A stretch of DNA of 64,000 nucleotides from Escherichia phage Bf23. Below the pieces are notes generated by a model that worked only from the letters and a program-made list of their open reading frames with translations, was not told where the DNA came from and did no database searches. Below, piece after piece: positions 2,318 through 30,781 of this stretch (position 1 is its first letter; the number at the start of each line of letters is the position of its first letter). The DNA lies in sequence record OR083247.1; one strand, given 5' to 3'. The position numbers and the translations under genes were made by a program.

Positions 2318-2323
2318 AAATTT

Positions 2324-2394: not shown

Positions 2395-2403
2395 ATTGTT
2401 AAT

Positions 2404-2480: not shown

Positions 2481-2486
2481 TTAAAT

Positions 2487-2574
2487 TGGTAGGGGAGGAT
2501 GGAGTCGAACCACCCGAGTCGCAATGACAACTAATTTACAGTCAGCTCTGCTACCACTTACAGAATACTCCCCC
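2487..2574 (-). tRNA. tRNA-Tyr(GTA), type II with long variable arm
   Basis: Anticodon loop CTGTAAA with stem GCTGA/TTAGT (two G-U), variable arm about 15 nt, T-arm GGTGG/TTCGACT/CCATC, discriminator A73, CCA encoded; 88 nt. Confidence 0.65.
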
Positions 2575-5870: not shown

Positions 5871-6338
5871 TTAAGTTTTAGTGACAACAGGTTTATAAAA
5901 CGTATGTCCCTTAATCTTAGTTGTTTTCTTAAACTTCTTTGTCCAGTAAGGTTTATCTTTACCACTATGGAAGTATAAAGCTCCATGTGTAGGATCTTGT
6001 GGTAAATCAACGTAGTATATCACTCTAGCTAAATTCTTGGCGGTTTGCCAAGCCTCATCGGTTTTATCAACTTTTGGCCTCTTAGATACCCAAGAGAACT
6101 GGTTAGACTGATATACTACTTTACAGTAGGAATCTGGAAATTTGCCGGAGTTTACACGGTTTTTAGTAACATGTGCAATCGCCGTCATTCCCTTTATGCC
6201 CTCACCACGACTTTCGAAATAGATATTTTTAGCAATGCAATCTATTTCTTTTGCATCGTGCGATGCCTGACTACTAAAGCTGAAGGTAAGGGCAGCTACT
6301 AAAAGCAAAGCTGCCTTCATTCGTTTTACTCCTGCCAA
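5871..6338 (-). CDS. secreted SleB/CwlJ-like cell-wall hydrolase (155 aa)
   Basis: N-terminal signal peptide (hydrophobic LLLVAALTFSFSSQA), then IYFESRGEG..G..AIAHVTKNR resembling the Hydrolase_2 core. Confidence 0.5.
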   Translation of the reverse strand: MAGVKRMKAALLLVAALTFSFSSQASHDAKEIDCIAKNIYFESRGEGIKGMTAIAHVTKNRVNSGKFPDSYCKVVYQSNQFSWVSKRPKVDKTDEAWQTAKNLARVIYYVDLPQDPTHGALYFHSGKDKPYWTKKFKKTTKIKGHTFYKPVVTKT

Positions 6339-6643
6339 TCGTATTCAATACGATTAGGGTTTTCTTTGTACCCCAAGTCAAGCAAATCATTACGCATAGT
6401 TTGCTTAGCTACGGGATTCGAGGTTACTAGTACCACTTTCTTTGGTCTCTGCCCAAATTCTAAGAGTAAACGAAGAATTTGATAACCTTCCATACCATCT
6501 ACAGCCAAATCGTTATCGAAATAAACAAAATGGCCAGTGGTATCAGTCTTATTCAGAAACTCAACAGCGGCTTCTGGGGTTCGAATGATAATGTCCATTC
6601 CGTGAAGATTACGCACATCATCAATCAAAATGTGAAAAGTCAT
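6326..6643 (-). CDS. CheY-like receiver (REC) domain-like protein (105 aa)
   Basis: HILIDDV .. FDNDL..DGMEGYQILRLL .. VVLVTSN pattern resembles receiver-domain acidic pocket, phosphoacceptor and T/S positions. Confidence 0.4.
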   Translation of the reverse strand: MTFHILIDDVRNLHGMDIIIRTPEAAVEFLNKTDTTGHFVYFDNDLAVDGMEGYQILRLLLEFGQRPKKVVLVTSNPVAKQTMRNDLLDLGYKENPNRIEYDWQE

Positions 6644-9037: not shown

Positions 9038-9553
9038 TTACTTCGCTTTACGTTTACGAGCTGGTTTAGCAGATTTACGAGCAGAATCACCCGTGAACTT
9101 AATGCCTACACCGTAACACAGAGCACGAACATTATCTTTACTATACTCTACGCCAAAGATATTTGGCTTAACAGAACCAAACTGTCCACGAGTATCACGC
9201 AATACATCTGCCGTTGGTTTGCGTTTCTGGTTAACTGCTTTCTCGTAATCTTTCATGGCCATGCCATTACGAGGGAACAATTCTGCTCCAGCATTGAAAC
9301 TCAGTGTTACTGGAACAGATTTGTGACCATAACCCTGTACATAGGTCACAAGGCGGGCTACAGAACGAGTAGCATTCTTAGCCTTCGGCTTTTGACGAAT
9401 CGGAGCCGGATGATTCAGTGCCTGTGCAGCTTGAGCATCAGTAGGGTGCTTGCGCAGGTGGCGTTCCAGACGAGCTTTGCGGTTAGCCTCAGTCTGCGGG
9501 AAAGTTTTAACTGTAGTAGCTGCTTGAGTTTTTGCGTTTTTCTGCTTAGCCAT
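9038..9553 (-). CDS. hypothetical basic protein (171 aa)
   Basis: ORF track; Lys/Arg-rich termini. Confidence 0.5.
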   Translation of the reverse strand: MAKQKNAKTQAATTVKTFPQTEANRKARLERHLRKHPTDAQAAQALNHPAPIRQKPKAKNATRSVARLVTYVQGYGHKSVPVTLSFNAGAELFPRNGMAMKDYEKAVNQKRKPTADVLRDTRGQFGSVKPNIFGVEYSKDNVRALCYGVGIKFTGDSARKSAKPARKRKAK

Positions 9554-9591
9554 TATTTGTTTTCCTTTTTGTTTATCAATTTATGAAGTAT

Positions 9592-9620
9592 ATTATACGA
9601 GAATTTGAAGCGTTTAGCAA
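9592..9620 (-). promoter_or_regulatory. early promoter (-35 TTGCTA, 17-nt spacer, -10 TATAAT)
   Basis: Consensus hexamers upstream of the 9038-9553 gene. Confidence 0.6.
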
Positions 9621-9636
9621 ATGAATTTTTTAAAAA

Positions 9637-9915
9637 TTATCTGCCGACCAGCTTAGCTTGTTCTTCATCAGAAACGTATTGATATGCACCCTTGTTATAC
9701 GCCGGAGCAGTACACATTTTCTTACGCTCAATCTCTTCTTGAGCTTTTCTTTCGCGTTCAGCTAATTCTTCATCCAGATAAACTAAACGTTGTTCTGGAG
9801 GAGGTGGAAGACGTGTTTCTGGCTCACCAATATTAGCCTTTCTTATTTGACGAGGTGATTGTGCACGTTTTCTCAACGGTTTAAATCCTAATGAATTTGA
9901 GTTATAAATTCGCAT
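9637..9915 (-). CDS. hypothetical protein (92 aa)
   Basis: ORF track. Confidence 0.4.
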   Translation of the reverse strand: MRIYNSNSLGFKPLRKRAQSPRQIRKANIGEPETRLPPPPEQRLVYLDEELAERERKAQEEIERKKMCTAPAYNKGAYQYVSDEEQAKLVGR

Positions 9916-9991
9916 AAAGCCCTCCTCACTTTCAATATGAATATTATACTAAATTAGAGGGCTTTAAGCAAGAAGATTTTTAATTTATTTA

Positions 9992-10468
9992 TCACATCTC
10001 AGCAAGTTCTTGCTCAGTAATAACTGTATTACATAGTGCATCTACAGCTTCATTACCACTAATTCCTGAGTGCCCTTTTACCTTAATAAAAGTAGGATTA
10101 GTATTGTGGAAGTTAATGTATTGCTGAGTTAATTTAAATGCTTCTTGCCAAAGCTCTAGATTAAGAGGGATTTCACCATCTGCTTTCTTCCAGCCTTTCC
10201 TCTGCCAAGAAAACATCCAACTTTCCATACCATTTTTGCAATAAGCAGAATCAGTATAGATAACAATTGGTCTATTATCTTTTTTAACTGACCAACGTAG
10301 AGCCTCTACAATAGCCGTGAGTTCCATCTCATTATTTGTAGTTTTAGGACTATATCCAGATTTAGAACCTAGACGATCGTCGTTATCATCATAGACAATA
10401 AAACCCCAAGCACCTAAACCCGGATTGCCTTTACATGCACCATCTGTATATATATGAAATGTACTCAT
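9992..10468 (-). CDS. rnh: ribonuclease H
   Basis: IYTDGACKGNPG..TNNEMEL..YTDS..G..W..W..KGH clearly aligns with RNase HI. Confidence 0.85.
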   Translation of the reverse strand: MSTFHIYTDGACKGNPGLGAWGFIVYDDNDDRLGSKSGYSPKTTNNEMELTAIVEALRWSVKKDNRPIVIYTDSAYCKNGMESWMFSWQRKGWKKADGEIPLNLELWQEAFKLTQQYINFHNTNPTFIKVKGHSGISGNEAVDALCNTVITEQELAEM

Positions 10469-11010
10469 CTATTAAGTTCCTCTAATGTAGGATAATAGTT
10501 ATTATAAAATGTTTCTTCTACAGCATCTTTACCATGTAACTCATGTCGCAAGGTATTTGCTTTTAATACGGCGTTCTCTAAATCTAGATATTCGAATATT
10601 CCACCATAAATATTCTTACCCTCACAATTTATTATCTGTACTTGCCACTTTTGTAGCTGTTTATTCCAATGTACTCCTAAGTACCCTGATTTGCTAGAGG
10701 CAGTGCAGTTTCTATTATTAATTTGACTAGTAGATTCTCTTAAATTTTTCCATCTATTATCTGACCGTATACGATTTATATGATCTACTAAGTCAGGAAT
10801 ACTTCCTGTCATATACAGAAATGCCAGTCTATGGGCTAGATAATCTACCTTATCTATTTTTATAGTTATATAACCATCTTTTCTTAAATAGCCAGCAACT
10901 GCTCCGGCTTTACCTCCCCTACCTCTACTTATTTTATTAGTAAATATTCCAGTATCGGGATCATAATTTAGAAGTTCTTTTAATCTCTCTAGTGTCGGTT
11001 GTTTACTCAT
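10465..11010 (-). CDS. HNH endonuclease with AP2-like DNA-binding domain (181 aa)
   Basis: HNH-like DHINRIRSDNRWKNL and AP2-like GYLGVHWNKQLQKWQVQI; sits between rnh and the thyA side. Confidence 0.65.
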   Translation of the reverse strand: MSKQPTLERLKELLNYDPDTGIFTNKISRGRGGKAGAVAGYLRKDGYITIKIDKVDYLAHRLAFLYMTGSIPDLVDHINRIRSDNRWKNLRESTSQINNRNCTASSKSGYLGVHWNKQLQKWQVQIINCEGKNIYGGIFEYLDLENAVLKANTLRHELHGKDAVEETFYNNYYPTLEELNR

Positions 11011-17908: not shown

Positions 17909-19783
17909 ATGAATCGTAATGAAGAACTAAAGTATAAAGAAATGCAGGCGTTAATTAGAAACTGCAAAGAGATTATCGAAGGATCAGCAGATGAAGAGCT
18001 GCTGTTTAATAATGCCAATAAACCCTCAGAACGTTTCCCTACACAAAGGGATATGCTTGCAGGGGAATTGAGTAAATATCTGATTCTAGAAGAAATGCCA
18101 ATTCAGATTCGAAATGCTCATATGATTGGAGATATTCATTTCCATGATGCTGATTACGCTGCTTTAGGTATGACTAACTGTTGTCTAGTAGCTCTGGAAG
18201 ATATGCTAAAAAATGGTATGAAAGTTGGTAATGCTGAAATTAGTACACCAAATTCTATTACTACTGCGGCTGCTATTACAGCTCAGATTATCACACAGGT
18301 TAGCTCCCATCAGTATGGCGGTACTTCTGTAGACCGATTAGATGAAGTATTGGCTCCTTATGTTCGTAAGTCTTATGATAAGAATCATGCGTTTGCAAAA
18401 CGTTGGACTAAGGATGAAGCCAAAGCATCAGTAATGGCTACTGAGATGACTGAAAAAGAAGTCTATGATGCTTGTCAGGGTCTAGAGTATGAAATCAATA
18501 CGATGTTCAATTCTAATGGTCAGAGTCCATTTATTACCTTTGGTTTTGGTCTAGGAACTTCTTGGGAAGCACGTCTAGTACAGAAAGCAATACTGAAAGT
18601 ACGTATGGATGGCCTAGGCATCAATAAACGTACAGCTATCTTTCCGAAACTGGTGTTTGTTCTGCGTGATGGCGTAAATATGAAGCCAGGAGATGTTAAT
18701 TATGACATCAAGAAGTTAGCTATGAAATGTACTGCTGAACGTATGTATCCCGACTATATCAGCTACGATAAGGTTGTGGAAGTTACTGGTGACTATAAAG
18801 TTTCTATGGGCTGCCGTTCATTCCTGGCTGCTACAGAGGATGGTGAAACTGCCGGTCGTAATAACTTAGGTGTTGTTTCTGTAAACTTGCCTAGAATTGC
18901 TATCGAAGCTGAAGGGAATATTGATCTATTCTTTGATTTGCTTGAGCTACGTGTGGATACAGCGTTAAAAGCATTGGAGTGGAGAGTTGATCGCTTAAAA
19001 TACATTCAAGCTAAAGCTGCGCCTATCCTCTATATGTCAGGAGCCTTTGGATTACGCTTAGGGCCTGATGAATATGTATTCGATCATTTCTATAACCGTG
19101 CTTCTGTATCTCTGGGGTATATTGGTTGCCATGAAATGCTACAGTTCATGTTTGGCAAAGATGTAGATACAATGTCTGAGACCTGCATCAAGTTTGTTCA
19201 GCGTGTGCTGCAGTACATGCGGGATAGGGTCGATCAGAAGAAGGAAGAGACTAAGTTAGGTTATAGCCTGTATGCTACACCATCAGAGTCCCTATGTGAT
19301 CGCTTTTGTCGTCTAGACCGTGAATATTTCCCGGAGCATGAAGATATTCTGTCCAAAGGATACTACACTAACTCTCACCACCTTGATGTGGAACGTAAAG
19401 TTGCTCCTAACGTGAAATTTGATTATGAATCTAACTTTACTCCGATTGCTTCTGGTGGATGTATCTCTTATGTAGAACTACCAGATATGAAACGATTCCC
19501 GGATGCACTGGAATGGGTTATTAATTATGCTGCTAGTAAGGTTCATTACTTCGGTATTAATACTCCAGTGGATTCCTGTGGTAAATGTGGATTCTTAGGT
19601 GAAACAGTAGCATCCGAAGATGGATTCAAGTGCCCTATCTGTGGTAATCATGACCCTGAAACTCTTGAAGTAACTCGTCGAGTTTGTGGGTATCTTGGAA
19701 ATCCAGGTGCTCGTCCGTTTAACCCAGGAAAACAACATGAGGTTATGGGCAGGGTGAAACATCAGGATATTCGAGCTAAATAA
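17909..19783 (+). CDS. nrdD: anaerobic ribonucleoside-triphosphate reductase (class III)
   Basis: C-terminal glycyl-radical motif RVCGYLG and zinc ribbon CGKCGF..CPICG. Confidence 0.9.
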   Translation: MNRNEELKYKEMQALIRNCKEIIEGSADEELLFNNANKPSERFPTQRDMLAGELSKYLILEEMPIQIRNAHMIGDIHFHDADYAALGMTNCCLVALEDMLKNGMKVGNAEISTPNSITTAAAITAQIITQVSSHQYGGTSVDRLDEVLAPYVRKSYDKNHAFAKRWTKDEAKASVMATEMTEKEVYDACQGLEYEINTMFNSNGQSPFITFGFGLGTSWEARLVQKAILKVRMDGLGINKRTAIFPKLVFVLRDGVNMKPGDVNYDIKKLAMKCTAERMYPDYISYDKVVEVTGDYKVSMGCRSFLAATEDGETAGRNNLGVVSVNLPRIAIEAEGNIDLFFDLLELRVDTALKALEWRVDRLKYIQAKAAPILYMSGAFGLRLGPDEYVFDHFYNRASVSLGYIGCHEMLQFMFGKDVDTMSETCIKFVQRVLQYMRDRVDQKKEETKLGYSLYATPSESLCDRFCRLDREYFPEHEDILSKGYYTNSHHLDVERKVAPNVKFDYESNFTPIASGGCISYVELPDMKRFPDALEWVINYAASKVHYFGINTPVDSCGKCGFLGETVASEDGFKCPICGNHDPETLEVTRRVCGYLGNPGARPFNPGKQHEVMGRVKHQDIRAK

Positions 19784-19792
19784 GCTAAACAG

Positions 19793-19825
19793 CCAGGTTG
19801 CTAGTCGACCTGGCTTTTATTTTAT
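19793..19825 (+). terminator. rho-independent terminator after nrdD
   Basis: Hairpin CCAGGT..ACCTGG followed by a T-rich tract. Confidence 0.7.
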
Positions 19826-19854
19826 TTGCTTTCAGCTAAAAATATATGTATAAT
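19826..19854 (+). promoter_or_regulatory. T5-type early promoter (-35 TTGCTT, 17-nt spacer, -10 TATAAT, downstream ATAAATTTGAGAGG box)
   Basis: Near-identical architecture to the PN25-like promoter at 26525. Confidence 0.7.
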
Positions 19855-19882: not shown

Positions 19883-20164
19883 ATGAGCGAATTGCTTCCG
19901 AAAGTAGATATTTCTCATCTTGGAGAGCCTAGTGAAGAACGTAAGGCTCTTGATTGGCTAGGTTACTTTGATTATCGTCGTGTTGTTGCAACATGGAATG
20001 ATAAGAAAGTTAAGAAGTTTCGGGTACATTATGTAGGTAAAGACAAGTGGCTCTGGATTGATTATGAAGAATCGAAGGGGTCTACTAAGGCTGTGAAAAT
20101 TTATTGTATGTATGGGTATTATTATGCTCACTGTGATAAGAATGAATTTACAGTACAGAACTAA
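19883..20164 (+). CDS. hypothetical protein (93 aa)
   Basis: ORF with RBS GAGGAGAAAG directly after the promoter. Confidence 0.5.
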   Translation: MSELLPKVDISHLGEPSEERKALDWLGYFDYRRVVATWNDKKVKKFRVHYVGKDKWLWIDYEESKGSTKAVKIYCMYGYYYAHCDKNEFTVQN

Positions 20165-20173
20165 GGAACAAGA

Positions 20174-20377
20174 ATGAAAAACGTAAAACATCTTAAATAT
20201 CGCTTAATCTATAATGGACGTATGGAAACTGAAGAGCTAGCTCAATTAGCTATTAACTCTAATGAGGTTATGGTGCGTGCGCTAGCAATTGAAAAGTTGC
20301 GGGCTTCTTATGAAAGTCGTATTATGGAACTAGAGGAGAAACTTTATGGCATTCTCGAAGCCGATGCTACCCGATAA
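20174..20377 (+). CDS. hypothetical protein (67 aa)
   Basis: ORF track. Confidence 0.4.
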   Translation: MKNVKHLKYRLIYNGRMETEELAQLAINSNEVMVRALAIEKLRASYESRIMELEEKLYGILEADATR

Positions 20378-20567
20378 TGGCTTAAATGCTGCGCTGGAAA
20401 ATGCATTGATGCAGCAGTGGGAGGCTGGATATAAGGATGGGGTTGAATCTTGTGCGAAAATAATGGATATAATGGCTAATTCTGTAGTTGGGAAAGCCCA
20501 TCCAGAAGTATCTGATATACTCCATAACCTTAGTAAAAACTTCAGAGAGCAGGTGAAAAATGCGTAG
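20346..20567 (+). CDS. hypothetical protein (73 aa)
   Basis: ORF track; overlaps the previous ORF in another frame. Confidence 0.4.
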   Translation: MAFSKPMLPDNGLNAALENALMQQWEAGYKDGVESCAKIMDIMANSVVGKAHPEVSDILHNLSKNFREQVKNA

Positions 20568-21396
20568 ATTAATTATTATTAGTGGTGCAGGTTTGAGTGT
20601 TGAAAGTGGTGTACGAGCCTTCCGTACTGATACTGCTAGTGGTAAAGCATTGTGGGATGATTATGACTTAGAAGAGGTATGTAATATTCATGCCTTTCGT
20701 GGTAATTTTTATCATAAAACCCACACGTTTTACAACAAACGTCGTGAAGAGTTAGAAACTGTTGAACCCAATCTTGCACACCTGCGTATTGGTGAATGGT
20801 ATAAGAAATATCCGGGTCAAGTAGTAAACTTAACTACCAACGTTGATGACCTTATTGAGCGTGCTGGCGTTCCACATAGTGACATTCTGCACATTCATGG
20901 GTATTTAAAAGAGATTGTTGTAGCTGATAGCTACAATAGTAGCAATAAACGAGTTATTGATGTTGGGTATAACTCTATTGACCCAGATGATTATAAATGG
21001 GTTAAACCTAATGTAGTCTTCTTCGGAGAACATGCTCCAGCATATGCAGAAATGTACAATGTTTTTGATGGTATTACCAGTCAAGATATGATCATTGTGG
21101 TTGGTTGCTCTAACCAAGTAATTAACTTCTACTGGGAATTATTCCCTGTTCTTAATCTGACTGCTGCAAAACTTATGGTAGTTAACTACTACGATAGTGC
21201 CTTAGCGGCGGAACCAGGCTATCAAGGTATGACTCGTAGTGATATGTACCAACTGGAAGATCGTGGTATTCCTTACTGGAGTAAAGGTGCGGTAGATGCT
21301 TTCAGTGACCCTGGTTTTATTGCTCGTGTGGAAGCTCATCTAGAGGGTAGGCCTTATGTGCCGGAGAGAAGGGGAAACAGATATGTCCATAGTTAA
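20560..21396 (+). CDS. Sir2-like (sirtuin-family) NAD-binding protein (278 aa)
   Basis: N-terminal GAGLSVESGVRAFR matches the sirtuin NAD-binding signature GAGIS.ESGI..FR. Confidence 0.65.
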   Translation: MRRLIIISGAGLSVESGVRAFRTDTASGKALWDDYDLEEVCNIHAFRGNFYHKTHTFYNKRREELETVEPNLAHLRIGEWYKKYPGQVVNLTTNVDDLIERAGVPHSDILHIHGYLKEIVVADSYNSSNKRVIDVGYNSIDPDDYKWVKPNVVFFGEHAPAYAEMYNVFDGITSQDMIIVVGCSNQVINFYWELFPVLNLTAAKLMVVNYYDSALAAEPGYQGMTRSDMYQLEDRGIPYWSKGAVDAFSDPGFIARVEAHLEGRPYVPERRGNRYVHS

Positions 21397-21565
21397 ATCT
21401 GTATATACACATCCCGATGATATATTTGTATGGGCGGATGGTAGTTGGTGCTATCGATGTGAGCTATGGGAAATGGACTATAAATCCGATGACTATGGTG
21501 TCATATATGTTGATACAGTTGAGTATGATACGTTCTTAGAAAGGGACAAAAATGAAAATAAGTAA
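21356..21565 (+). CDS. hypothetical protein (69 aa)
   Basis: ORF track. Confidence 0.35.
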   Translation: MCRREGETDMSIVKSVYTHPDDIFVWADGSWCYRCELWEMDYKSDDYGVIYVDTVEYDTFLERDKNENK

Positions 21566-22058
21566 TACTCCAATTATTTTTCTAGATATTGATGGGGTGC
21601 TCAACTCGAGCATCTCCCATCACCATGCACCTGATGATGAAAAGATTTTCTTTGGAAGTGACTGGGTCTTTAAACCGCTTCTCAAGGCTTTTCAGGACTT
21701 TATTCGTCCTTCTCCAATAATGATTGTTGGGGTATCTTCATGGTTCTCTGTTAGGAATGAGGTGGAGAACGTTCAGATTATGACCGGATTAGATCTTATC
21801 GATCGTTTTCTTGGTACAACGGATTTTACTGGTGGTGGATTATCTAGAGGTAATTCTGTTCTTCGCTTCGTTGAAAAGCATAAGCTCAAACATTGGTGTG
21901 TGCTGGATGACGCTGGTGCTATGATGTACCAGTATCCAACGGTTATAGTCAACGGTAGAACTGGAATAAATCTTCAAGATTTAAGAGCTGTTAGCTATAT
22001 GCTAGAATTTAGCCCAGATCTTGAAATGTGTAAATCCTTACAACAATTTAAGGTGTAA
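21552..22058 (+). CDS. HAD-superfamily hydrolase-like protein (168 aa)
   Basis: HAD motif I IIFLDIDGVLNS and a later VLDDAG aspartate pair. Confidence 0.5.
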   Translation: MKISNTPIIFLDIDGVLNSSISHHHAPDDEKIFFGSDWVFKPLLKAFQDFIRPSPIMIVGVSSWFSVRNEVENVQIMTGLDLIDRFLGTTDFTGGGLSRGNSVLRFVEKHKLKHWCVLDDAGAMMYQYPTVIVNGRTGINLQDLRAVSYMLEFSPDLEMCKSLQQFKV

Positions 22059-22060
22059 AT

Positions 22061-22489
22061 ATGTTCAATAATGTATTCTCTAAAGAAGCTAACCCAATTT
22101 TGGTTAATTTTTGGCGTACTCTTCCAGCCAACCTGTACAATGAGGCTATTAATGCTCTGAAAATATGGTGTGAGAATAATGAAATCTCCTTTGCTTTTAA
22201 GGGTGAGATTGAAGAAGCTCCCTGTATTGGTTTAATTGTGCAGGTAGAGGATGGTTTGGAAGAGATTGTCGGCTGGAAAGAGTTGGATGAAATGGGGTTG
22301 GTTTTTGCATTAAACTATAAGCTATTTATGCCCAATAAACACCGTATTGTTGTTAACTATAAAACCAGTGAATCTCCGGGCTTTCAAGTTAATGAACATT
22401 ACGGTTGGTCTTACTCACCGGAAGAAGTAAATGATGGTATCCAAAAACTTCGTCGTTTTGGTTATCAAATTCCGGGTTTAACCGCCTAA
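22061..22489 (+). CDS. hypothetical protein, paralogue A of a tandem pair (142 aa)
   Basis: Shares PCIGL, ELDEMGLVFALNYKLFMP and C-terminal YQIPGL with the next ORF. Confidence 0.5.
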   Translation: MFNNVFSKEANPILVNFWRTLPANLYNEAINALKIWCENNEISFAFKGEIEEAPCIGLIVQVEDGLEEIVGWKELDEMGLVFALNYKLFMPNKHRIVVNYKTSESPGFQVNEHYGWSYSPEEVNDGIQKLRRFGYQIPGLTA

Positions 22490-22498
22490 GGGGGCACA

Positions 22499-22891
22499 AT
22501 GGAACAAGTATATTGGCGTCAGATTGATCCTAGTTTGGTGAAGCGTGCGGAGAAGCTGCTACAACGTTGGTTGGGGGTAAGACAAGCCTCCTTCACTTTT
22601 CCGGAGCAGCAAATAGACGATCCCTGTATTGGTGTTTTCCTATCAGGCTACGCTAGGGAATGGGAATTGGATTGGAATGAGTTGTCTGCTATGGGTTTAA
22701 TTGTTGCACTAAATTTCTCTTTGTTCCATCCACGTGGTTTGGCCCTATGTCGTGTGCCTGATGACGGTTGTTCGCCCCATCTTTTACAGGTGGAAGATGA
22801 TATTTGGGAGTACACTCCAGATATTCTCAAAGAAGCTAAAGAACAGTTAAACCATGTTGGGATCTATGTTCCAGGCTTGAATGATGAATGA
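22499..22891 (+). CDS. hypothetical protein, paralogue B of a tandem pair (130 aa)
   Basis: PCIGV, ELSAMGLIVALNFSLFHP and C-terminal IYVPGL mirror the previous ORF. Confidence 0.5.
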   Translation: MEQVYWRQIDPSLVKRAEKLLQRWLGVRQASFTFPEQQIDDPCIGVFLSGYAREWELDWNELSAMGLIVALNFSLFHPRGLALCRVPDDGCSPHLLQVEDDIWEYTPDILKEAKEQLNHVGIYVPGLNDE

Positions 22892-22982
22892 TTTTTATTA
22901 GCTGAACTCTGATTACCGAGTCATTTTGGCTCGGTTTTCTCTGTGCTTAAAGACACTGATAGCACCTTTGGGAAAAATTTAC

Positions 22983-23011
22983 TTGCATGATGCCCAAAAT
23001 CTTGATATAAT
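22983..23011 (+). promoter_or_regulatory. T5-type promoter (-35 TTGCAT, 17-nt spacer, -10 TATAAT) with no ORF directly downstream
   Basis: Hexamers plus downstream ATTTATATTGAATTGAGAG box; next CDS begins at 23509. Confidence 0.6.
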
Positions 23012-23508
23012 ATTTATATTGAATTGAGAGACATTAGTAAAAATTGATTTTGCTAATTTTTCTTGTTTACAATCCGCGATACGGAACAGTTAGGCTGCCC
23101 CATTAAGGGTTGTTTTAACTATTACTAGTGTTTATATTGCATTAGTTAATCTTCAATTAAGTGATCTGTGTACCCTGAATTCGGAAAGGTAAATCCAAAC
23201 CGTGCATATTTAGCTCGTTATATAGGCAGAGTTTTATATGGGGGTGCGAACGAAAAGAGCAGCGAATGGCGGCACGTACAGTAGTCACCTACCAATAGGA
23301 TAGTGAGGACAAATAGAATCGGCTTAGCGGCCAATGACCTAGGTTCTATTCTGTATATGAGCGAAGAGAGCACAGCACTGAGATATGATAACTTATTCAT
23401 ATTGTTTGATGATAATTGATGTTTACGTAAATAGTAGTAATAGTTGTTCTATTCTTTCTGAATAGTCCTAAAGAAAAGATTTCGATTAACCAACATAGGA
23501 GTATTGTT

Positions 23509-26298
23509 GTGTTTTCTATCCTCCAAGGTCACGCCGGGTTTTCTCGTGATTTAGCAACAGGTATTTGGCGAGAAATCAAAGCGGAAGATTATACCTTTGC
23601 CAAGCGATTCTCGAAAGAGCATCCAGAAGGTAAACCAGCTTCTATGCCCTTCAAATTTGATGTAATAGAAGAGCACGACCCACAAAGCCTTGCCGAAATG
23701 TTACCCCTTATGAGACGTTTAACGTCTGATCCTCATATCGTTGCGGTACGAGGTCGATGTCTTGCACCTAAAAATAATGTGCGGCGTAAGAAAGGTAACT
23801 TTAATGTATCTAATCCTAGTAATATTATTGCTATGGACGTGGATGGTATCCTAGATACCGGTGGGTACGACAAATTTAATCTTGTTGGTATGGCTCGCCA
23901 CATTATTAAGATGTTGAATAGTATTAGTGAGGATATGTTCCCTCTTGATGCAGGCTTTATAGCTCATGCATCGTCTTCGGCTGGGCTAAAACCAGGTATC
24001 CGAATGCACTTAATGCTAGAATCTAATGTCAAGGTAACTCAGGGTCAGCTAAAGTTCTTATTTACATCTATCAACGATAGTAGTAAGCAAAAATTTGGTT
24101 TTGATATTGCCGACCTAGCTTATTATTCATCTGTCCAGCTCCACTATTTTGCCGACCCCTTATTTAGCGATGGTATTGTTGATCCGTTTAAAGCGGAGAG
24201 TAAGCCACGTCTGGTGTATGTTAAAGGTTCGAAAGTAAATTTGCCCAATAATCTGGTTGACTATGAAACAACTAGAGGGGAGTTTAAGGAAGAGTTTTAT
24301 TCCTTACTTGATCAAATTAAAGGCAAAAAGATTGCTTCTGATAAAGTAGAAGAAACCATCAGCGAGTTAGAAGAGGCTGATGATGGGGTGTATTTGCGTA
24401 TTATCCCCAAACTATACCATAGAGCATTAGAGGATGGGGTTGATTTTGCATGGCTAGAACGTGAGATTAAACCAGCTTTATCTGAATATATTGCAACTAA
24501 AGATAACAGTCGTAATATTCAAGATTACTTTAATAACGGTCGTAAGCAGGCTCTCAAAGCGTTTGTTAATAATTCTAAACGTGAGATTCCATTAAATCTG
24601 AAAGGTGTTCCACTTAAGAAATTAGAAGTGGATTCTCCACCAGAAGTTCCATACCTGAAGATTAACATTGTGCCCCCCAAAGGCCATATAACATTTGTTA
24701 AGGCAAGTCTTGGTACTGGTAAAACTACGGCAGTAACTAAATGGCTGGACGCAGGTGTTCTTCCGGGCAACTTTTTAGCAGTTACAAATACTAGAGCACT
24801 GGTATCTTCAAATGCCAAGAAATTTAGTGCAGGACAATACGATAAGTCTGTAGATATGCTCAACTTTAAACGTGGAGCTATTGATCGTATGTCCACAACT
24901 ATTCACTCTTTGCATAAGTTCAAAAGTTTTATTGGGCAAATAGACACCATTTTTATTGATGAATGTGACGCTGTAATGAATGACCTATTATTCGCCCCTG
25001 TTGTTAAACAACGTCGCGAGTGTATTCAAGTTCTACGTGACATCCTCATGACAGCTAAGACTGTAATCTTATCCGATGGTGATATTAGCGCTGAGACGAT
25101 TGAAGCATATGGTTCTCTAATTGATTTTGATAAACCAGTAGCATTTTATAATCATCACCGTAAAATGCTGTCAAAAGCACACGCTTATGAGTTCCCTGAT
25201 GAATCCAGTATTTGGGTTGCACTTCAGACTTCTCTAGAGATGGGTGAGAAATCTATTCTAGTATCTGATTGTGGTCCTGATGAGCTGAATGAGAAGGGTA
25301 TGGCACTACGTCGTAATACTGGTGCGTTAGTTAAGGAAATCCATTCAAACTCTACGTCAGATGTGGATATTCGACGTATTCTGGATTATACAACTAATGA
25401 GCTAATTGATCAACAAATTGATTGCTTATTATGTAGCCCATCCGTAACGAGTGGTGTTGACTTTAACTACTTTGATAACGTATTTGTTATTACTAGAACC
25501 AGTAATCAAGCGCCAAACATGCGTTTCCAAGCAATCAGGCGCGACCGTGGTGCTCAGAATATCTATTATTTTATTGATAAATCCACTAGTGGGTTCTCCG
25601 CAGGTTCTGAACAATATAATATTGATGAAGGTTGGCTGGAGTTAGCACAGCAATTATACGCACGTCGCAGGGAACTGGAATCCAGGAACTATACTAGTAC
25701 TTTACGTTATTACTTGCTTGATCAAGGTGCAACTATTGATATTTTCAGCGAAAGCTGGGGAACTATTGAAGGTGCTGGTAAAGAGTACACAGAAGAGCGA
25801 ATCAAAGCTATTCTGCATTCAACTCCAGATTATTGTGCTCCACGTCATGCGGATGCGTATGAAGCTAAACTACTTCTTGTTCGCTATTATCATCTTGAGT
25901 CTATTAAAGATGTAACAGTTGAGCATGTTGAACAATATATCAAAGATAAACCGAATGATCGAGCTGCATTCTTCCATAAGATGCACGAGATGTTTTGGGA
26001 AGATATTAAGAAGTGTTCAAACGTCACTATCAAACCATTCATAGAAGCTCTGAAAGGTAAGAAGAAAGATTTCTTCCTTAAAACAGGTCAGAGTGCTAAT
26101 GCAAAATATGCTAGAATGTATCTTGGTATGATGGGCATTGGTAAAGATATGAACACGGAGAATATTGTAGACTGGTATAGAACCTATTGTAAAATCGAGT
26201 GTATGCCAATTCCTTATAAGTTCATGACTGACGAGGAAAAACATATGCATGATGAAGCAATGTCAGAGCTAGGTGCTAGAAATGACAGTGAAGAATAA
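23509..26298 (+). CDS. Walker-type ATPase/helicase, putative replication-origin-binding protein (929 aa), GTG start
   Basis: Walker A SLGTGKTT, Walker B FIDECDAV; AGGAG RBS 8 nt upstream of GTG. Confidence 0.65.
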   Translation: MFSILQGHAGFSRDLATGIWREIKAEDYTFAKRFSKEHPEGKPASMPFKFDVIEEHDPQSLAEMLPLMRRLTSDPHIVAVRGRCLAPKNNVRRKKGNFNVSNPSNIIAMDVDGILDTGGYDKFNLVGMARHIIKMLNSISEDMFPLDAGFIAHASSSAGLKPGIRMHLMLESNVKVTQGQLKFLFTSINDSSKQKFGFDIADLAYYSSVQLHYFADPLFSDGIVDPFKAESKPRLVYVKGSKVNLPNNLVDYETTRGEFKEEFYSLLDQIKGKKIASDKVEETISELEEADDGVYLRIIPKLYHRALEDGVDFAWLEREIKPALSEYIATKDNSRNIQDYFNNGRKQALKAFVNNSKREIPLNLKGVPLKKLEVDSPPEVPYLKINIVPPKGHITFVKASLGTGKTTAVTKWLDAGVLPGNFLAVTNTRALVSSNAKKFSAGQYDKSVDMLNFKRGAIDRMSTTIHSLHKFKSFIGQIDTIFIDECDAVMNDLLFAPVVKQRRECIQVLRDILMTAKTVILSDGDISAETIEAYGSLIDFDKPVAFYNHHRKMLSKAHAYEFPDESSIWVALQTSLEMGEKSILVSDCGPDELNEKGMALRRNTGALVKEIHSNSTSDVDIRRILDYTTNELIDQQIDCLLCSPSVTSGVDFNYFDNVFVITRTSNQAPNMRFQAIRRDRGAQNIYYFIDKSTSGFSAGSEQYNIDEGWLELAQQLYARRRELESRNYTSTLRYYLLDQGATIDIFSESWGTIEGAGKEYTEERIKAILHSTPDYCAPRHADAYEAKLLLVRYYHLESIKDVTVEHVEQYIKDKPNDRAAFFHKMHEMFWEDIKKCSNVTIKPFIEALKGKKKDFFLKTGQSANAKYARMYLGMMGIGKDMNTENIVDWYRTYCKIECMPIPYKFMTDEEKHMHDEAMSELGARNDSEE

Positions 26299-26524: not shown

Positions 26525-26553
26525 TTGCTTTCAGGAAAATTTTTCTGTATAAT
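26525..26553 (+). promoter_or_regulatory. T5 PN25-type early promoter (-35 TTGCTT, 17-nt spacer, -10 TATAAT)
   Basis: The stretch TTTGCTTTCAGGAAAATTTTTCTGTATAATAGATTTATAAATTTGAGAGAGGAG is almost identical to the classical PN25 promoter as I recall it. Confidence 0.9.
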
Positions 26554-28827: not shown

Positions 28828-29799
28828 ATGACCAATGTAAAAGAATTTATTAAACGCTGTCAAGAAGCATATTATCAAGGTATGTCTTTAATCTCTGATG
28901 AGGAGTATGATTGCCTAGTAAAACGCTTCCCGTTAGAGGAAGAGATCGGGCCTAAGGGTGATATTCCACATCTGTATCGTATGTATTCTTTACAGAAAGT
29001 TTACTATAACCGTGGAGATAAACCACCATTCAATCCTTTAGGTCAGGTGGAAACCGATAAGTTAGATGGTTGTGCAATTTCTCTGCTATATATTAATGGC
29101 GAATTTGTTCAAGCACTAACTCGTGGTAATGGTATTCTGGGGAATGATGTCACAAGCAACATAAGATTGCTGAACATCCCTAAAAAGATTTCCCAAAAAG
29201 TACCTACTCAAATCACTGGTGAAGTTCTAATTACAAAAGAAGTAGAAAATAAACGTAACTTTGCCTCTGGTGCTATTAACCTCAAAGATAGCGATGATTT
29301 CGTACAACGTATCGGGGAAGGTGGTTTAATCTTTGTTGCTTATGGTATCCAATGTTCTGCTGAATCTGTGGGTATTACAGAAGCATATTTAAAAGATATG
29401 CTTTGGCTAGAGAATGAGAACTTCTTAACAGTTGTTAATGTGCGTTCCTTCTTTAAATGGATTCCGACGGACGGTAAAGTTGTTCGTATTAATGACAACA
29501 ACAAATTCTTCCGTGAAGGCTGGACTAATAAATTCCCTCGTGGAGCATTCGCCATTAAAGAGGATGAAGAAGGCGAGATTACAACTCTTACTAAGGTTGA
29601 ATGGCAGGTAGGGGCTTCTGGTAAAGTAACTCCAGTTGGTTATTTCGAACCGGTAATTATTGATGATGCTACAATTGTTAAAGCGACTCTTAATAACGTT
29701 GATTATATTAACTCTCTCGATCTAGAGATCGGTTGCCAGATTCGAGTGATTCGTGCTGGTGGTGTAATCCCGTGCATAGTAGAGCGAGTATACGATTAA
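28828..29799 (+). CDS. NAD-dependent DNA ligase, N-terminal adenylation part (subunit A, 323 aa)
   Basis: KxDG adenylation motif in ETDKLDGCAISL; OB-fold-like C-terminal region. Confidence 0.8.
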   Translation: MTNVKEFIKRCQEAYYQGMSLISDEEYDCLVKRFPLEEEIGPKGDIPHLYRMYSLQKVYYNRGDKPPFNPLGQVETDKLDGCAISLLYINGEFVQALTRGNGILGNDVTSNIRLLNIPKKISQKVPTQITGEVLITKEVENKRNFASGAINLKDSDDFVQRIGEGGLIFVAYGIQCSAESVGITEAYLKDMLWLENENFLTVVNVRSFFKWIPTDGKVVRINDNNKFFREGWTNKFPRGAFAIKEDEEGEITTLTKVEWQVGASGKVTPVGYFEPVIIDDATIVKATLNNVDYINSLDLEIGCQIRVIRAGGVIPCIVERVYD

Positions 29800-29998: not shown

Positions 29999-30781
29999 TT
30001 GATGAAAATCGAAATTCCAACACAATGTCCCTCTTGTGGTTCTAAGCTAGATCTTGTCAACGGACAATTATTTTGTCGTAATAAGTCCAACTGTCCAGCG
30101 CAATCAAGTAAGTTAATTGAGAACTTCTGTACAAAAATGAAGTTAAAGGGTTTTGGCCCGAAAACTATTGAGAAGCTGGAGCTGACGAAGATTTCAGAAC
30201 TATTTTACCTAACCGAAGAAGATTTGGTTAGAGCCGTGGGTAGCAAGGTTGCCGCTAAGTTAATTAGCGAATTAAATACTAAAGTTCGCGGAGACATTGA
30301 CTTTGGTTCAGTTCTCGGTTCTTTAGGAATCTCTCTAATTGGAGAGGTTGCAGCAAAGAAATTATCCCAAAATTGCACTAGCTTCCACGATGTGAAGGCT
30401 GACGGCAAGGCTGGAGAAAACTATAAAGCCTGGCTAAATTCCCCACAAGGCAAGGATGTTATCGAATTACCGTGGAAATTCACAACTGGTATTAAAGGTG
30501 CTAAAGCTGACATCATCATTACTGATGGTCTAGTAGCCCAACCAAACGGAATAACGGTATGTATTACCGGATCTTTGCAAGATTTTGCAAATAGAACGGA
30601 TGCAACAAACTATTTAGAAGGTCTAGGATATACGGTTAAGAAATCCGTTACCAAAGACGTCAAATACCTAATCTGTGAGGATGAATCGAAGCGTTCTTCC
30701 TCATCTTATAAGAAAGCCGAAACGAATGGGATAGAAATCCTGTCGATTAAAGAACTATTGGAGAAAAATAATAATGTCTAA
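29999..30781 (+). CDS. NAD-dependent DNA ligase, C-terminal part (subunit B: zinc finger, HhH, BRCT-like; 260 aa)
   Basis: Zn finger CPSCGS..C..C, helix-hairpin-helix-like GFGPKTIEKL. Confidence 0.75.
   Translation: MMKIEIPTQCPSCGSKLDLVNGQLFCRNKSNCPAQSSKLIENFCTKMKLKGFGPKTIEKLELTKISELFYLTEEDLVRAVGSKVAAKLISELNTKVRGDIDFGSVLGSLGISLIGEVAAKKLSQNCTSFHDVKADGKAGENYKAWLNSPQGKDVIELPWKFTTGIKGAKADIIITDGLVAQPNGITVCITGSLQDFANRTDATNYLEGLGYTVKKSVTKDVKYLICEDESKRSSSSYKKAETNGIEILSIKELLEKNNNV

What the first reader, a model, noticed from the sequence alone, without database searches (positions are those of the whole stretch)
20560..22891. Sir2-like NAD-binding protein in an accessory block with a HAD-like hydrolase and a tandem paralogue pair
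ORF 20560-21396 carries a sirtuin-type NAD-binding signature (GAGLSVESGVRAFR). It sits in a block of small genes (19883-22891) behind a strong early promoter, next to a HAD-like hydrolase and two paralogous ORFs, none of which looks like core replication machinery. NAD+ turnover is central to several bacterial defence systems (Thoeris, DSR, Sir2-HerA), so a phage-borne Sir2 module expressed early may manipulate host NAD/ADP-ribose metabolism or counter such defences. The function cannot be read from the sequence alone.
Basis: partly seen in the sequence, partly recalled or inferred. Interest (0 to 1): 0.65.

Follow-up and report, generated by a model that had tools for sequence, protein, structure and literature searches.

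The report
T5-type phage sirtuin–phosphatase early operon
This is the already-annotated Sir2/"cobB" gene of T5-like phages, a zinc-less sirtuin always kept next to a small HAD phosphatase; its job has never been tested, and the best-supported guess is NAD-dependent removal of phosphate groups during RNA-end repair, not NAD depletion.

Summary
The window is a T5-like phage (Demerecviridae). ORF 20560-21396 is a real sirtuin: Pfam SIR2 E 6e-25, and a confident model that superposes on E. coli CobB. It lies in one early transcription unit (19883-22891) behind a PN25-like T5 promoter and between two terminators. The unit also holds a HAD_SAK_2 phosphatase and two DUF7415 paralogues (30% identical).

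None of this is new. T5's 2005 annotation calls the gene "cobb", and hundreds of phage records carry it at 91-96% identity. Iyer et al. 2022 already described the sirtuin + "Swiss-army-knife" HAD neighbourhood and predicted a KptA/Tpt1-like role in RNA repair.

My additions:
- The clade keeps all NAD and catalytic residues and the class-III YxxR motif, but has lost the Zn-Cys4 module and the VxP substrate loop.
- It does not match defence-type Sir2 models.
- Orthologues at about 60% identity sit in RNA ligase–cREC–kinase–Sir2 operons.
- The HAD–Sir2 pair survives gene-order shuffling.
- An unlinked cREC gene lies in this window (6326-6643).
- T5-likes have no recognisable RNA ligase or polynucleotide kinase.
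- HAD_SAK_2 homologues also head NARP1-like NAD-salvage operons.

Function remains untested. Interest is modest.

The parts
19791..19815 (+). Rho-independent terminator ending the upstream nrdD gene; left boundary of the unit
   Evidence: 10-bp stem with 6 GC pairs followed by TTTTATTTT. T5 carries an annotated terminator at the equivalent site.
19826..19854 (+). T5 early promoter of the PN25 family (TTGCTT - 17 nt - TATAAT), followed by a GAGAGGAG ribosome-binding site
   Evidence: 50/58 identity to PN25. My recalled PN25 sequence matches T5 at 100% at a paralogous site. The T5 equivalent is annotated 'early promoter T5P31, repeat c copy 5'.
19883..20567 (+). Three small conserved ORFs of unknown function (19883-20164, 20174-20377, 20346-20567)
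   Evidence: PHROGs 7953, 5236 and 5827, all 'unknown function'. No Pfam family. Their presence varies among T5-likes.
20560..21396 (+). Zn-less sirtuin (T5 'cobb'/sir2 orthologue), 278 aa
   Evidence: PF02146 at E 5.7e-25. Closest solved structure is CobB. Invariant residues: GAGxS, F21-R22, Y58xxR61, N94, D96, H113-G114, KPNVVFFGE, GxS, N209. There is no Cys4 site.
21356..21565 (+). Small ORF (T5.104-like); probable start at 21383, overlapping both neighbours
   Evidence: PHROG 5116 at E 8e-29. Annotated as T5.104 homologue in OSYSP.
21552..22058 (+). HAD_SAK_2 phosphatase (T5.105-like), 168 aa
   Evidence: PF18143 at E 2e-20, 1-138/139 of the profile. DIDGV, SSW and DD motifs are conserved against the 43%-identical My1 homologue. 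It stays linked to Sir2 in three different gene orders.
22061..22489 (+). DUF7415 protein, paralogue a (T5.106-like), 142 aa
   Evidence: PF24187 at E 3e-33. 30% identical to paralogue b.
22499..22891 (+). DUF7415 protein, paralogue b (T5.107-like), 130 aa
22915..22935 (+). Rho-independent terminator; right boundary of the unit
   Evidence: 9-bp stem followed by a T-run. T5 carries an annotated terminator at the equivalent site.
6326..6643 (-). Unlinked candidate partner: stand-alone cREC (cyclic-phosphate-processing receiver) domain protein, 105 aa
   Evidence: PF20274 at E 9e-15, 55.5 bits against a cut-off of 27. The same domain sits immediately upstream of the orthologous Sir2 in Vequintavirus and Mydovirus. 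It is found in 493 phage records, against 498 for the HAD, and 50 Vibrio records carry it, as for Sir2.

Best explanation
The ORF encodes a catalytically intact, zinc-less sirtuin of a phage-restricted clade. It is made early from a PN25-type promoter together with a HAD_SAK_2 phosphatase.

The most likely mechanism is inferred, not shown. The enzyme uses NAD+ as an ADP-ribosyl donor to remove a phosphomonoester, most plausibly an RNA 2'-phosphate, as KptA/Tpt1 does.
1. The substrate phosphate, held by the invariant Tyr58-x-x-Arg61 anion pocket, attacks C1'' of NAD+ and expels nicotinamide.
2. His113 activates the 2''-OH, which releases ADP-ribose 1'',2''-cyclic phosphate and the dephosphorylated substrate.
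3. The unlinked cREC protein (6326-6643) and the adjacent HAD phosphatase then handle the cyclic and linear phosphates. These could be on RNA ends or on the Appr>p by-product.

On this reading Sir2 / cREC / HAD_SAK_2 is a non-homologous analogue of yeast Tpt1 / Cpd1 / Poa1.

What is shown: sirtuin identity and fold, conserved catalytic residues, loss of the Zn module, operon structure, conserved linkage.
What is inferred: the substrate, the chemistry and the biological purpose. The purpose could be healing of RNA, for example tRNA cut by host nucleases. T5-likes lack their own ligase, so sealing would need a host enzyme.
For: 1. Sirtuin identity and an intact NAD/catalytic set in all 38 clade members.
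2. Two elements that canonical sirtuins use to clamp a peptide are gone clade-wide. The Zn-Cys4 module is lost, and the G-x-S-x-x-V-x-P loop is replaced by invariant V-I-N/D-F. Scores against CobB equivalog models are 45-102 bits against cut-offs of 221-395.
3. The class-III Y-x-x-R motif, which binds a substrate anion in CobB/SIRT5 (my knowledge), is invariant.
4. Orthologues at 59-64% identity in Vequintavirus DrSchubert, Mydovirus Ro1 and 10 further viral contigs lie in co-directional, nearly overlapping operons. The order is RNA_lig_T4_1 - cREC_REC - (AAA_33 kinase) - Sir2, with a calcineurin-type phosphoesterase and MazG nearby.
5. The HAD-Sir2 pair is kept in three gene orders across T5-like lineages, including one lineage with neither NrdD nor DUF7415.
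6. A cREC gene is present in this genome, with a matching phyletic spread.
7. In Aeromonas phage phiAS5, HAD_SAK_2 lies three genes from RnlA.
8. The same prediction was published independently (PMC9503650, section 3.7.3; PMC7824862).
Against: - No experiment exists for any member of the clade.
- T5-likes have no recognisable RNA ligase or polynucleotide kinase. tblastn of the V5-type markers against the window and the whole OSYSP genome found none, and none is annotated. The pathway therefore cannot seal RNA on its own.
- The protein is acidic, pI 4.9-5.8 in three members. That is unusual for an RNA-binding enzyme.
- Other lineages place the sirtuin next to NadV and NrdD, not RNA-repair genes.
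- HAD_SAK_2 homologues also head Prs-like/NAPRTase operons.
- Best sequence and structure matches are protein deacylases.
- Natural deletions in DT57C and SHSML-45 show the pair is dispensable in culture.
Confidence: 0.4

Rival explanations
1. It is a CobB-like NAD+-dependent protein lysine deacylase (deacetylase or desuccinylase) that resets acylation of host or phage proteins early in infection, for example activating acetyl-CoA synthetase or nucleotide-metabolism enzymes.
For: - The nearest sequences and structures are E. coli CobB, archaeal Sir2Af and SIRT5.
- Every catalytic and NAD-binding residue is kept, as is the desuccinylase-type YxxR.
- This is the standard database annotation.
- It was argued for the Zn-less Vibrio-phage homologue in PMC5107563.
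- OSYSP also encodes an annotated acetyltransferase.
Against: - The Zn module and the VxP substrate loop are lost.
- Scores are far below every NCBIfam CobB equivalog cut-off.
- It gives no reason for the conserved pairing with a phosphatase, or for the RNA ligase-cREC-kinase operons of the orthologues.
Confidence: 0.25
2. One reading: Sir2 + HAD form an NAD+/ADP-ribose-centred counter-defence module. For example, they could process phosphorylated or cyclic ADPR derivatives made by host NAD-targeting defences. The HAD would act as a non-homologous analogue of the Macro-domain ADPR-1''P phosphatase Adpp of NARP1-AP.
For: - HAD_SAK_2 homologues (37-39% identical) are the first gene of HAD-(x)-Prs-like-NAPRTase operons in Serratia phage ChuuTotoro and a 152-kb viral contig. 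The Prs-like gene belongs to the widespread phage Prs-like group.
- NARP1 operons are known to recruit an ADPR-1''P phosphatase (preprint 10.64898/2026.01.28.702374).
- Distant clade members lie next to NadV.
- T5-likes carry other NAD+ counter-defences (NARP3, PMC13464706).
- The sir2 slot shows cassette-like allelic replacement: 52% amino-acid identity inside flanks that are 85-89% identical at the DNA level. It also shows natural deletions. Both are typical of arms-race genes.
Against: - A sirtuin spends NAD+.
- There is no similarity to the Sir2 models of the PADLOC defence library.
- No NARP1-like genes lie in this window or in the OSYSP annotation.
- The NARP3 paper does not mention the phage Sir2.
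- No experimental link exists.
- I did not test whether the Prs-like/NAPRTase pair is Adps/Namat or Prs/NadV.
Confidence: 0.2
3. The block is part of the phage's deoxynucleotide-supply cluster. The HAD would be a nucleotidase, and the DUF7415 proteins (and perhaps the sirtuin) would modulate the adjacent anaerobic ribonucleotide reductase or dNTP pools.
For: - The block directly follows nrdD and lies in the nrdAB-frd-td region.
- The sirtuin neighbours NrdD in two unrelated phage lineages.
- DUF7415 is fused to dATP/dGTP pyrophosphohydrolase and to thymidylate kinase in other proteins. It lies between nrdG and nrdD in T4-like Klebsiella phages.
- The HAD follows thymidylate synthase in phiAS5.
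Against: - One T5-like lineage keeps HAD-Sir2 without NrdD or DUF7415.
- The HAD matches only the HAD_SAK_2 family, with no nucleotidase family at E up to 1.
- No known role connects a sirtuin to RNR.
- Early metabolic genes cluster in these phages in any case.
Confidence: 0.1

Closest known systems
Bacteriophage T5 'cobb' / Sir2-like gene (AAX12033, between nrdD and the origin-binding protein gene) and its orthologues in Tequintavirus and Epseptimavirus
   Same: Same gene in the same position: 95-96% amino-acid identity to the T5 copy. It has the same promoter (T5P31) and terminators and the same neighbours, T5.104-T5.107.
   Different: Nothing material. This window has three small upstream ORFs where T5 has two, and a slightly longer C-terminal tail (278 vs 272 aa).
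Phage 'RNA-repair' sirtuin clade of Iyer, Burroughs, Anantharaman and Aravind 2022 (PMC9503650); neighbourhood type 3, typified by Escherichia phage SP15: sirtuin + Swiss-army-knife HAD
   Same: Sirtuin next to a HAD_SAK phosphatase. 59-64% identity to the sirtuins of type-2 neighbourhoods (rV5/Mydo-like) that carry RNA ligase, cREC and kinase.
   Different: T5-likes have no RNA ligase or kinase. Their cREC gene is about 14 kb away on the other strand. The function is a prediction only.
E. coli CobB / human SIRT5 (class III sirtuin protein deacylases)
   Same: Rossmann fold, GAGxS, FR, N/D nicotinamide pocket, catalytic His, YxxR. About 25% identity, TM 0.85 on CobB.
   Different: No Zn-Cys4 module. 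The VxP substrate loop is replaced by VIN/DF. Scores are 45-102 bits against equivalog cut-offs of 221-395. The protein is phage-restricted and acidic.
KptA/Tpt1 RNA 2'-phosphotransferase with Cpd1 and Poa1 (yeast tRNA-splicing by-product pathway)
   Same: Proposed chemistry: NAD+-dependent removal of a 2'-phosphate, giving Appr>p, then a cyclic phosphodiesterase and a phosphatase. Genomic context resembles Trl1-like ligase/kinase/CPDase functions in the V5-type operons.
   Different: Unrelated folds: sirtuin vs KptA/ART-like, cREC vs 2H, HAD vs Macro. The analogy rests on context and mechanism only. No activity was measured.
Defence-associated SIR2 NADases (ThsA, DSR1/2, SIR2-HerA, KomC)
   Same: Sir2 superfamily, NAD+ as substrate, no zinc module (the last point is my knowledge).
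   Different: No PADLOC model match. The Pfam family is SIR2 PF02146. There is no sensor or partner domain. It is phage-encoded and expressed early.
NARP1-AP (Adps-Adpp-Namat) of Osterman et al. 2026 preprint
   Same: A phosphatase gene attached to a Prs-like/NAPRTase operon, seen for HAD_SAK_2 homologues in L079 and L081.
   Different: Adpp is a Macro-domain protein, not a HAD. This window has no Prs-like or NAPRTase genes. The substrate of the HAD is unknown.

Membership tests
Sirtuin / SIR2 family (PF02146) | Profile match above the curated threshold | tested here: met
   88.7 bits against 24, E 5.7e-25, profile positions 1-178 of 180.
Sirtuin / SIR2 family (PF02146) | Rossmann NAD-binding core with GAGxS...FR and the sirtuin fold | tested here: met
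   G9-A-G-L-S13, F21-R22 invariant. AlphaFold2 pLDDT 88.5. Foldseek hit to CobB at E 6e-18.
Sirtuin / SIR2 family (PF02146) | Catalytic His (HG motif) and nicotinamide-pocket Asn/Asp | tested here: met
   H113-G114, N94 and D96 are invariant in 38/38 sequences and align to CobB HG and QNID.
Sirtuin / SIR2 family (PF02146) | Zn-binding Cys4 (CxxC...CxxC) small domain | tested here: not met
   No Cys in residues 113-149 of the window protein, and at most one in any of the 38 clade members. The CobB Cys positions align to non-Cys residues or gaps.
CobB-type protein deacylase (NCBIfam equivalogs NF040867, NF001755 and others) | Score at or above the curated equivalog cut-off | tested here: not met
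   45-102 bits against cut-offs of 221-395.
CobB-type protein deacylase (class III) | Y-x-x-R acyl-carboxylate-binding motif | tested here: met
   Y58 and R61 are invariant and align to the CobB sequence FYNARR.
CobB-type protein deacylase (class III) | G-x-S-x-x-V-x-P substrate-binding loop | tested here: not met
   CobB GTSGHVYP aligns to GCSNQVIN. V187, I188 and F190 are invariant. Position 189 is N in 33/38 and D in 5/38, never P.
CobB-type protein deacylase (class III) | NAD+-dependent lysine deacylase activity | not testable with these tools
   Needs an enzyme assay.
Defence-type SIR2 NADases (Thoeris ThsA, DSR, SIR2-HerA) | Match to defence-system Sir2 profiles | tested here: not met
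   PADLOC returned only a chance-level hit to a type I restriction enzyme model, E 0.04.
Defence-type SIR2 NADases (Thoeris ThsA, DSR, SIR2-HerA) | Fused or adjacent sensor or partner (SLOG, HerA, TIR, large C-terminal domain) | tested here: not met
   Single-domain 278-aa protein. Neighbours are the HAD, the DUF7415 genes and small ORFs.
Phage RNA-repair sirtuin clade (Iyer et al. 2022) | Orthology with sirtuins encoded in RNA ligase/cREC/kinase neighbourhoods | tested here: met
   59-64% identity over 94-95% of the length to the Ro1, DrSchubert and related proteins. Their operons were verified.
Phage RNA-repair sirtuin clade (Iyer et al. 2022) | Adjacent Swiss-army-knife HAD phosphatase (type-3 neighbourhood) | tested here: met
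   PF18143 gene 156 nt downstream. The linkage is kept in three gene orders.
Phage RNA-repair sirtuin clade (Iyer et al. 2022) | RNA ligase and 5'-kinase encoded by the same phage | tested here: not met
   No tblastn hit of the V5-type Rnl1, PNK or kinase markers in the window or the whole OSYSP genome. None is annotated there. Other ligase families were searched only through the record's annotation.
Phage RNA-repair sirtuin clade (Iyer et al. 2022) | NAD+-dependent RNA 2'-phosphate removal | not testable with these tools
   Needs an assay. No published test was found.
HAD superfamily, HAD_SAK_2 (PF18143) | Profile match above threshold and the four HAD motifs | tested here: met
   73.9 bits against 27.5. 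D12-I-D14-G-V, S62-S63, R99 and D129-D130 are conserved against the My1 homologue at 43% identity.
NARP1-AP associated phosphatase (Adpp) | Macro (Poa1p-like) domain next to Adps and Namat | tested here: not met
   The window protein is a HAD, not a Macro domain, and no Prs-like or NAPRTase gene is nearby. Only distant HAD homologues sit in such operons.
DUF7415 (PF24187) | Profile match above threshold | tested here: met
   114 and 109 bits against a cut-off of 27.

The most novel reading that the evidence does not exclude
The zinc-less phage sirtuin would be the first sirtuin whose substrate is a phosphomonoester rather than an acyl-lysine. With the cREC and HAD_SAK_2 proteins it would form a complete, non-homologous replacement of the eukaryotic Tpt1-Cpd1-Poa1 route.

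The same HAD_SAK_2 phosphatase would be reused as an alternative 'Adpp' in NARP1-like NAD+-rebuilding operons. The T5 module, which has no RNA ligase, would then act mainly on phosphorylated ADP-ribose species made in the NAD+ arms race. Examples are products of aRES-type phosphorolysis or Appr>p. RNA would not be its main substrate.
Probability: 0.2. Interest if true: 0.75.

Novelty: already known. Interest (0 to 1): 0.3.

Why it matters
T5 is a classic model phage, and its sir2 gene has been annotated for twenty years without a tested function. If the phosphate-removal prediction is right, it would add a new reaction class to the sirtuin family. It would also show how large lytic phages deal with RNA damage or with phosphorylated ADP-ribose products.

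- an order-independent Sir2-HAD pair;
- an unlinked cREC gene in the same genome;
- HAD_SAK_2 homologues at the head of NARP1-like operons;
- cassette-like swapping of sir2 alleles.

As a scan finding, though, it is a correct re-identification of a known, annotated gene block, not a discovery.

Tried and rejected
- PADLOC scan of all eight block proteins: no defence-system or anti-defence similarity.
- NCBIfam: only sub-threshold CobB hits; nothing for the HAD, the DUF7415 proteins, cREC or the small ORFs.
- Bacterial genome scan for the clade: only 6 loci. Two are phage-like contigs and the rest are ordinary Zn-containing sirtuins, so no cellular context is available.
- Search for RNA ligase, PNK, MazG and phosphoesterase homologues of the V5-type operon in the window and the whole OSYSP genome: none.
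- Literature searches for experimental work on a phage or T5 sirtuin, and for sirtuin together with Tpt1 or cREC: only computational predictions. Two phage gene-essentiality preprints do not mention it.
- Rfam scan of the window: only tRNAs. Repeat scan of the 570-nt spacer 22936-23508: only weak chance-level repeats.
- Phapecoctavirus context (ukendt): neighbours have no informative Pfam family.
- Rejected: that RefSeq's second 'Sir2' label on the HAD gene reflects a real second sirtuin. It comes from PHROG 18062, which matches the HAD C-terminus and a Sir2 fragment. That is the composition of the Sir2-HAD deletion-fusion ORF of DT57C.


Full report
**What the window is.** The 3.2-kb block matches 447 phage records. 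The best are 92-94% identical T5-like Salmonella and Escherichia phages (S131, OSYSP; Demerecviridae, Tequintavirus). Gene order around the block is that of T5:
- PhoH (minus strand) and the nrdAB-frd-td cluster to the left;
- nrdD at 17909-19783;
- then the block;
- then the origin-binding protein gene at 23509-26298 and the replication genes.

**Checking the observation.**
- ORF 20560-21396 begins MRRLIIISGAGLSVESGVRAFR. It matches Pfam SIR2 end to end at E 5.7e-25 and PHROG 2162 at E 4e-121.
- An AlphaFold2 model built on 38 clade members has mean pLDDT 88.5. Its best PDB matches are E. coli CobB (E 6e-18, TM 0.85 on the target), archaeal Sir2Af and SIRT5.
- ORF 21552-22058 is a full-length HAD_SAK_2 domain (E 2e-20).
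- ORFs 22061-22489 and 22499-22891 are both DUF7415 proteins, 30% identical to each other.
- Upstream of 19883 lies TTGCTT-17-TATAAT. My recalled sequence of the classic T5 PN25 promoter matched T5 at 100% at a paralogous site. The window's site is 50/58 identical to it. In the T5 record the equivalent site is 'early promoter T5P31 / repeat c copy 5'.
- Terminators at 19791-19815 and 22915-22935 (also annotated in T5) bound a tightly packed unit.

All parts of the observation are confirmed.

**Anatomy of the sirtuin.**
- In an alignment of 38 relatives at 55-96% identity, the following are invariant: GAGxS, S16-G17, F21-R22, F57-Y58-x-x-R61-R62, P70-N71, N90, T92-T-N-V-D96, H113-G114, K149-P-x-V-x-F-F-x-E157, G182-x-S184, V187-I188, F190 and N209.
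- Aligned to CobB, these are the NAD-binding loop, the class-III YxxR, the nicotinamide pocket and the catalytic His.
- The four zinc cysteines of CobB have no counterpart. The segment between the catalytic His and KPNV contains at most one Cys in any member.
- The near-universal G-x-S-x-x-V-x-P loop is V-I-N/D-F here.
- Against NCBIfam CobB models the protein scores 45-102 bits where 221-395 are required.
- It matches no Sir2 model in the PADLOC defence library.

It is therefore a genuine, probably active sirtuin. It is neither a CobB equivalog nor a defence-type NADase. Loss of zinc in phage Sir2/CobB proteins was already noted for Vibrio phages (PMC5107563).

**Distribution.** Homologues are essentially phage-only.
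- 997 phage records carry one: T5-likes, Vequintavirinae, Phapecoctavirus, Vibrio schizoT4-likes and jumbo phages.
- A scan of 185,579 species' genomes found six loci. Two are phage-like contigs and the others are ordinary Zn-containing sirtuins.

**Context elsewhere.** I compared 62 viral loci with marker proteins and read annotated records.

1. Vequintavirus DrSchubert, Mydovirus Ro1 and ten more contigs (sirtuin 49-64% identical): RNA_lig_T4_1 - cREC_REC - (AAA_33 kinase) - Sir2, co-directional and almost overlapping. A calcineurin-type phosphoesterase, MazG and DNA ligase lie nearby.
2. T5-like lineages:
   - Sir2 - x - HAD in Tequintavirus, Epseptimavirus and My1.
   - HAD - x - x - Sir2 after NrdD in a Logan contig.
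   - HAD - x - Sir2 directly between PhoH and the origin-binding gene, with no NrdD and no DUF7415.
   - The HAD-Sir2 pair is thus the conserved core, independent of order. NrdD and DUF7415 are optional neighbours.
   - Klebsiella T5-likes keep Sir2 and DUF7415 but have no detectable HAD.
3. Two unrelated phage contigs: NadV - x - Sir2 - EndoVII-like - NrdD (- NrdG).
4. HAD_SAK_2 without Sir2:
   - first gene of HAD - (x) - Prs-like - NAPRTase operons in Serratia phage ChuuTotoro and a 152-kb contig;
   - three genes from RnlA in Aeromonas phage phiAS5.

**A missing and a hidden partner.** The RNA ligase, kinase, MazG and phosphoesterase markers of the V5-type operon have no tblastn match in the window or in the complete OSYSP genome. 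None is annotated there either. The window does encode a stand-alone cREC_REC protein at 6326-6643 on the minus strand (E 9e-15). Every record annotates it as hypothetical. Its phyletic spread is 493 records, 50 of them Vibrio phages. This mirrors the HAD (498 records) and the Vibrio-phage Sir2 (50 records).

**Interpretation.** Iyer et al. 2022 described exactly these neighbourhoods, including 'sirtuin + Swiss-army-knife HAD' in the T5-like phage SP15. They proposed that the sirtuin removes RNA 2'-phosphates the way KptA does, with the linked phosphoesterases either preparing RNA ends or clearing ADPr>P (cREC defined in PMC7824862).

My checks support the premises:
- orthology with the RNA-ligase-linked sirtuins;
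- robust HAD linkage;
- presence of cREC.

They also add mechanistic plausibility:
- the substrate-anion motif YxxR and the catalytic His are invariant;
- two peptide-clamping elements are lost.

The trio Sir2 / cREC / HAD_SAK_2 maps functionally onto yeast Tpt1 / Cpd1 / Poa1. This is inference only.

Points against:
- T5-likes cannot seal RNA themselves;
- the protein is acidic, pI 4.9-5.8;
- other lineages place it with NadV and NrdD;
- nothing has been tested experimentally.

I put this model at about 0.4.

**Rivals.**
- A CobB-like protein deacylase fits the homology but not the context, about 0.25.
It gains some support from HAD_SAK_2 heading NARP1-like operons. This echoes the Macro-domain ADPR-1''P phosphatase of NARP1-AP (preprint 10.64898/2026.01.28.702374). 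It also gains support from arms-race-like variation at the locus.
- A dNTP-supply role rests mainly on DUF7415 associations and is weakened, about 0.1.

**Variation at the locus.**
- HildyBeyeler-type phages have flanks 85-89% identical in DNA to the window. The interval 20683-21553 (sir2 plus the small ORF) is only partly alignable at 67%, and the protein is 52% identical with a roughly 30-aa insert. This is a cassette-like allele swap.
- That allele is closest, at 76-78%, to a Klebsiella T5-like copy (P0095, phage vB_Kpn_3) and to an unnamed relative, P0076.
- DT57C carries a deletion fusing Sir2 residues 171-233 to HAD residues 128-168. SHSML-45 has a similarly truncated HAD whose remaining ORF is labelled 'Sir2'. 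The pair is therefore dispensable in culture.
- PHROG 18062 matches the HAD C-terminus (residues 77-168) and a Sir2 fragment (residues 169-216). That is the composition of the DT57C fusion ORF. This probably explains why RefSeq labels the HAD gene 'Sir2'.

**The DUF7415 pair.**
- The family is small: 158 clusters among 1.8 billion representatives. It has a 53-aa core.
- My1 has a single copy, so the tandem duplication is lineage-specific.
- Fusions to dATP/dGTP pyrophosphohydrolase and thymidylate kinase, and a position between nrdG and nrdD in T4-like Klebsiella phages, hint at nucleotide metabolism.

**Verdict.** The finding is real and correctly read at the level of domains, but it re-identifies a gene block that is annotated in hundreds of genomes and already has a published functional prediction. 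Novelty: already known. Interest is modest (0.3). The function is still untested in a model phage, and the leads above make it easy to test.

Noticed in passing
window 6326-6643 (minus strand): Stand-alone cREC_REC (cyclic-phosphate-processing receiver) protein, PF20274 E 9e-15. It is annotated 'hypothetical' in every T5-like record listed. The same domain sits directly upstream of the orthologous Sir2 in Vequintavirus and Mydovirus. It occurs in 493 phage records, including 50 Vibrio phages.
   Followed up: partly
window 20683-21553 versus L043, L044, L046, L047: Cassette-like allelic replacement of sir2. Flanks are 85-89% identical in DNA, but the sir2 interval is only 67% alignable and the protein is 52% identical with a roughly 30-aa insert. 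This allele is closest (76-78%) to a Klebsiella T5-like copy (P0095) and to an unnamed relative, P0076.
   Followed up: partly
L003 2980-3252 (phage DT57C); also Shigella phage SHSML-45: In DT57C a natural deletion fuses Sir2 residues 171-233 to HAD residues 128-168 in one 91-aa ORF. SHSML-45 has a HAD truncated to residues 64-168 and labelled 'Sir2', which I did not examine further. PHROG 18062 matches the same two fragments. This probably explains why RefSeq labels the intact HAD gene 'Sir2 (NAD-dependent deacetylase)' in many T5-like genomes.
   Followed up: yes
L079 7001-10217 and L081 5001-8569: HAD_SAK_2 homologues (37-39% identical) are the first gene of HAD-(x)-Prs-like-NAPRTase operons in about 150-kb phages (Serratia phage ChuuTotoro). 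The layout resembles NARP1 with an added phosphatase. I did not test whether the pair is Adps/Namat or Prs/NadV.
   Followed up: partly
L066 8057-13758 and L070 6086-11132: In two unrelated phage contigs a Zn-less sirtuin of the same broad clade (42-43% identical) lies in NadV - x - Sir2 - EndoVII-like - NrdD, followed by NrdG in L066. The Sir2-NrdD adjacency therefore recurs outside T5-likes.
   Followed up: no
window 22061-22891; proteins P0202, P0243, P0245: The 53-aa DUF7415 core is fused to dATP/dGTP pyrophosphohydrolase (PF04447) and to thymidylate kinase in other proteins. It lies between nrdG and nrdD in T4-like Klebsiella phages. Pectobacterium phage My1 has one copy instead of two. 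No solved fold matches.
   Followed up: partly
window, 16 sites, e.g. 26525-26553 (+), 17658-17630 (-), 22983-23011 (+): The T5 early-promoter pattern TTGCTT-N17-TATAAT (at most 1 mismatch) occurs 16 times. All sites left of 17.7 kb are on the minus strand and all right of 19.8 kb are on the plus strand, matching gene orientation. The site at 26525 is the exact PN25 core.
   Followed up: partly
window 9553-9992 versus OSYSP 19208-19657: OSYSP encodes a YbiA/NADAR-family protein between the DUF7022 gene and RNase H. This window lacks it and keeps only the neighbouring small ORF (9637-9915). NADAR is thus another variable NAD/ADPR-related accessory gene in T5-likes.
   Followed up: partly
window 28828-29799 and 29999-30781: The NAD-dependent DNA ligase is split into two genes: adenylation + OB domains, then HhH/BRCT domains, as in T5. 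It is another NAD+ consumer in the same early region.
   Followed up: no
window 22936-23508: About 570 nt without a convincing ORF between the operon terminator and the origin-binding protein gene. It holds a promoter-like site at 22983-23011 (T5P32 equivalent). Only weak repeats and no Rfam hit.
   Followed up: partly
window 1-2574 (minus strand): End of the phage tRNA cluster: Asp, Asn, Cys, Phe, Glu and Tyr, plus a truncated tRNA at the window edge.
   Followed up: no
window 10465-11010 and 5170-5859 (minus strand): An HNH_3 homing-endonuclease gene lies next to RNase H. A T5orf172/MUG113 + CapR-domain protein lies further left. Both are mobile-element-like inserts in the early region.
   Followed up: no
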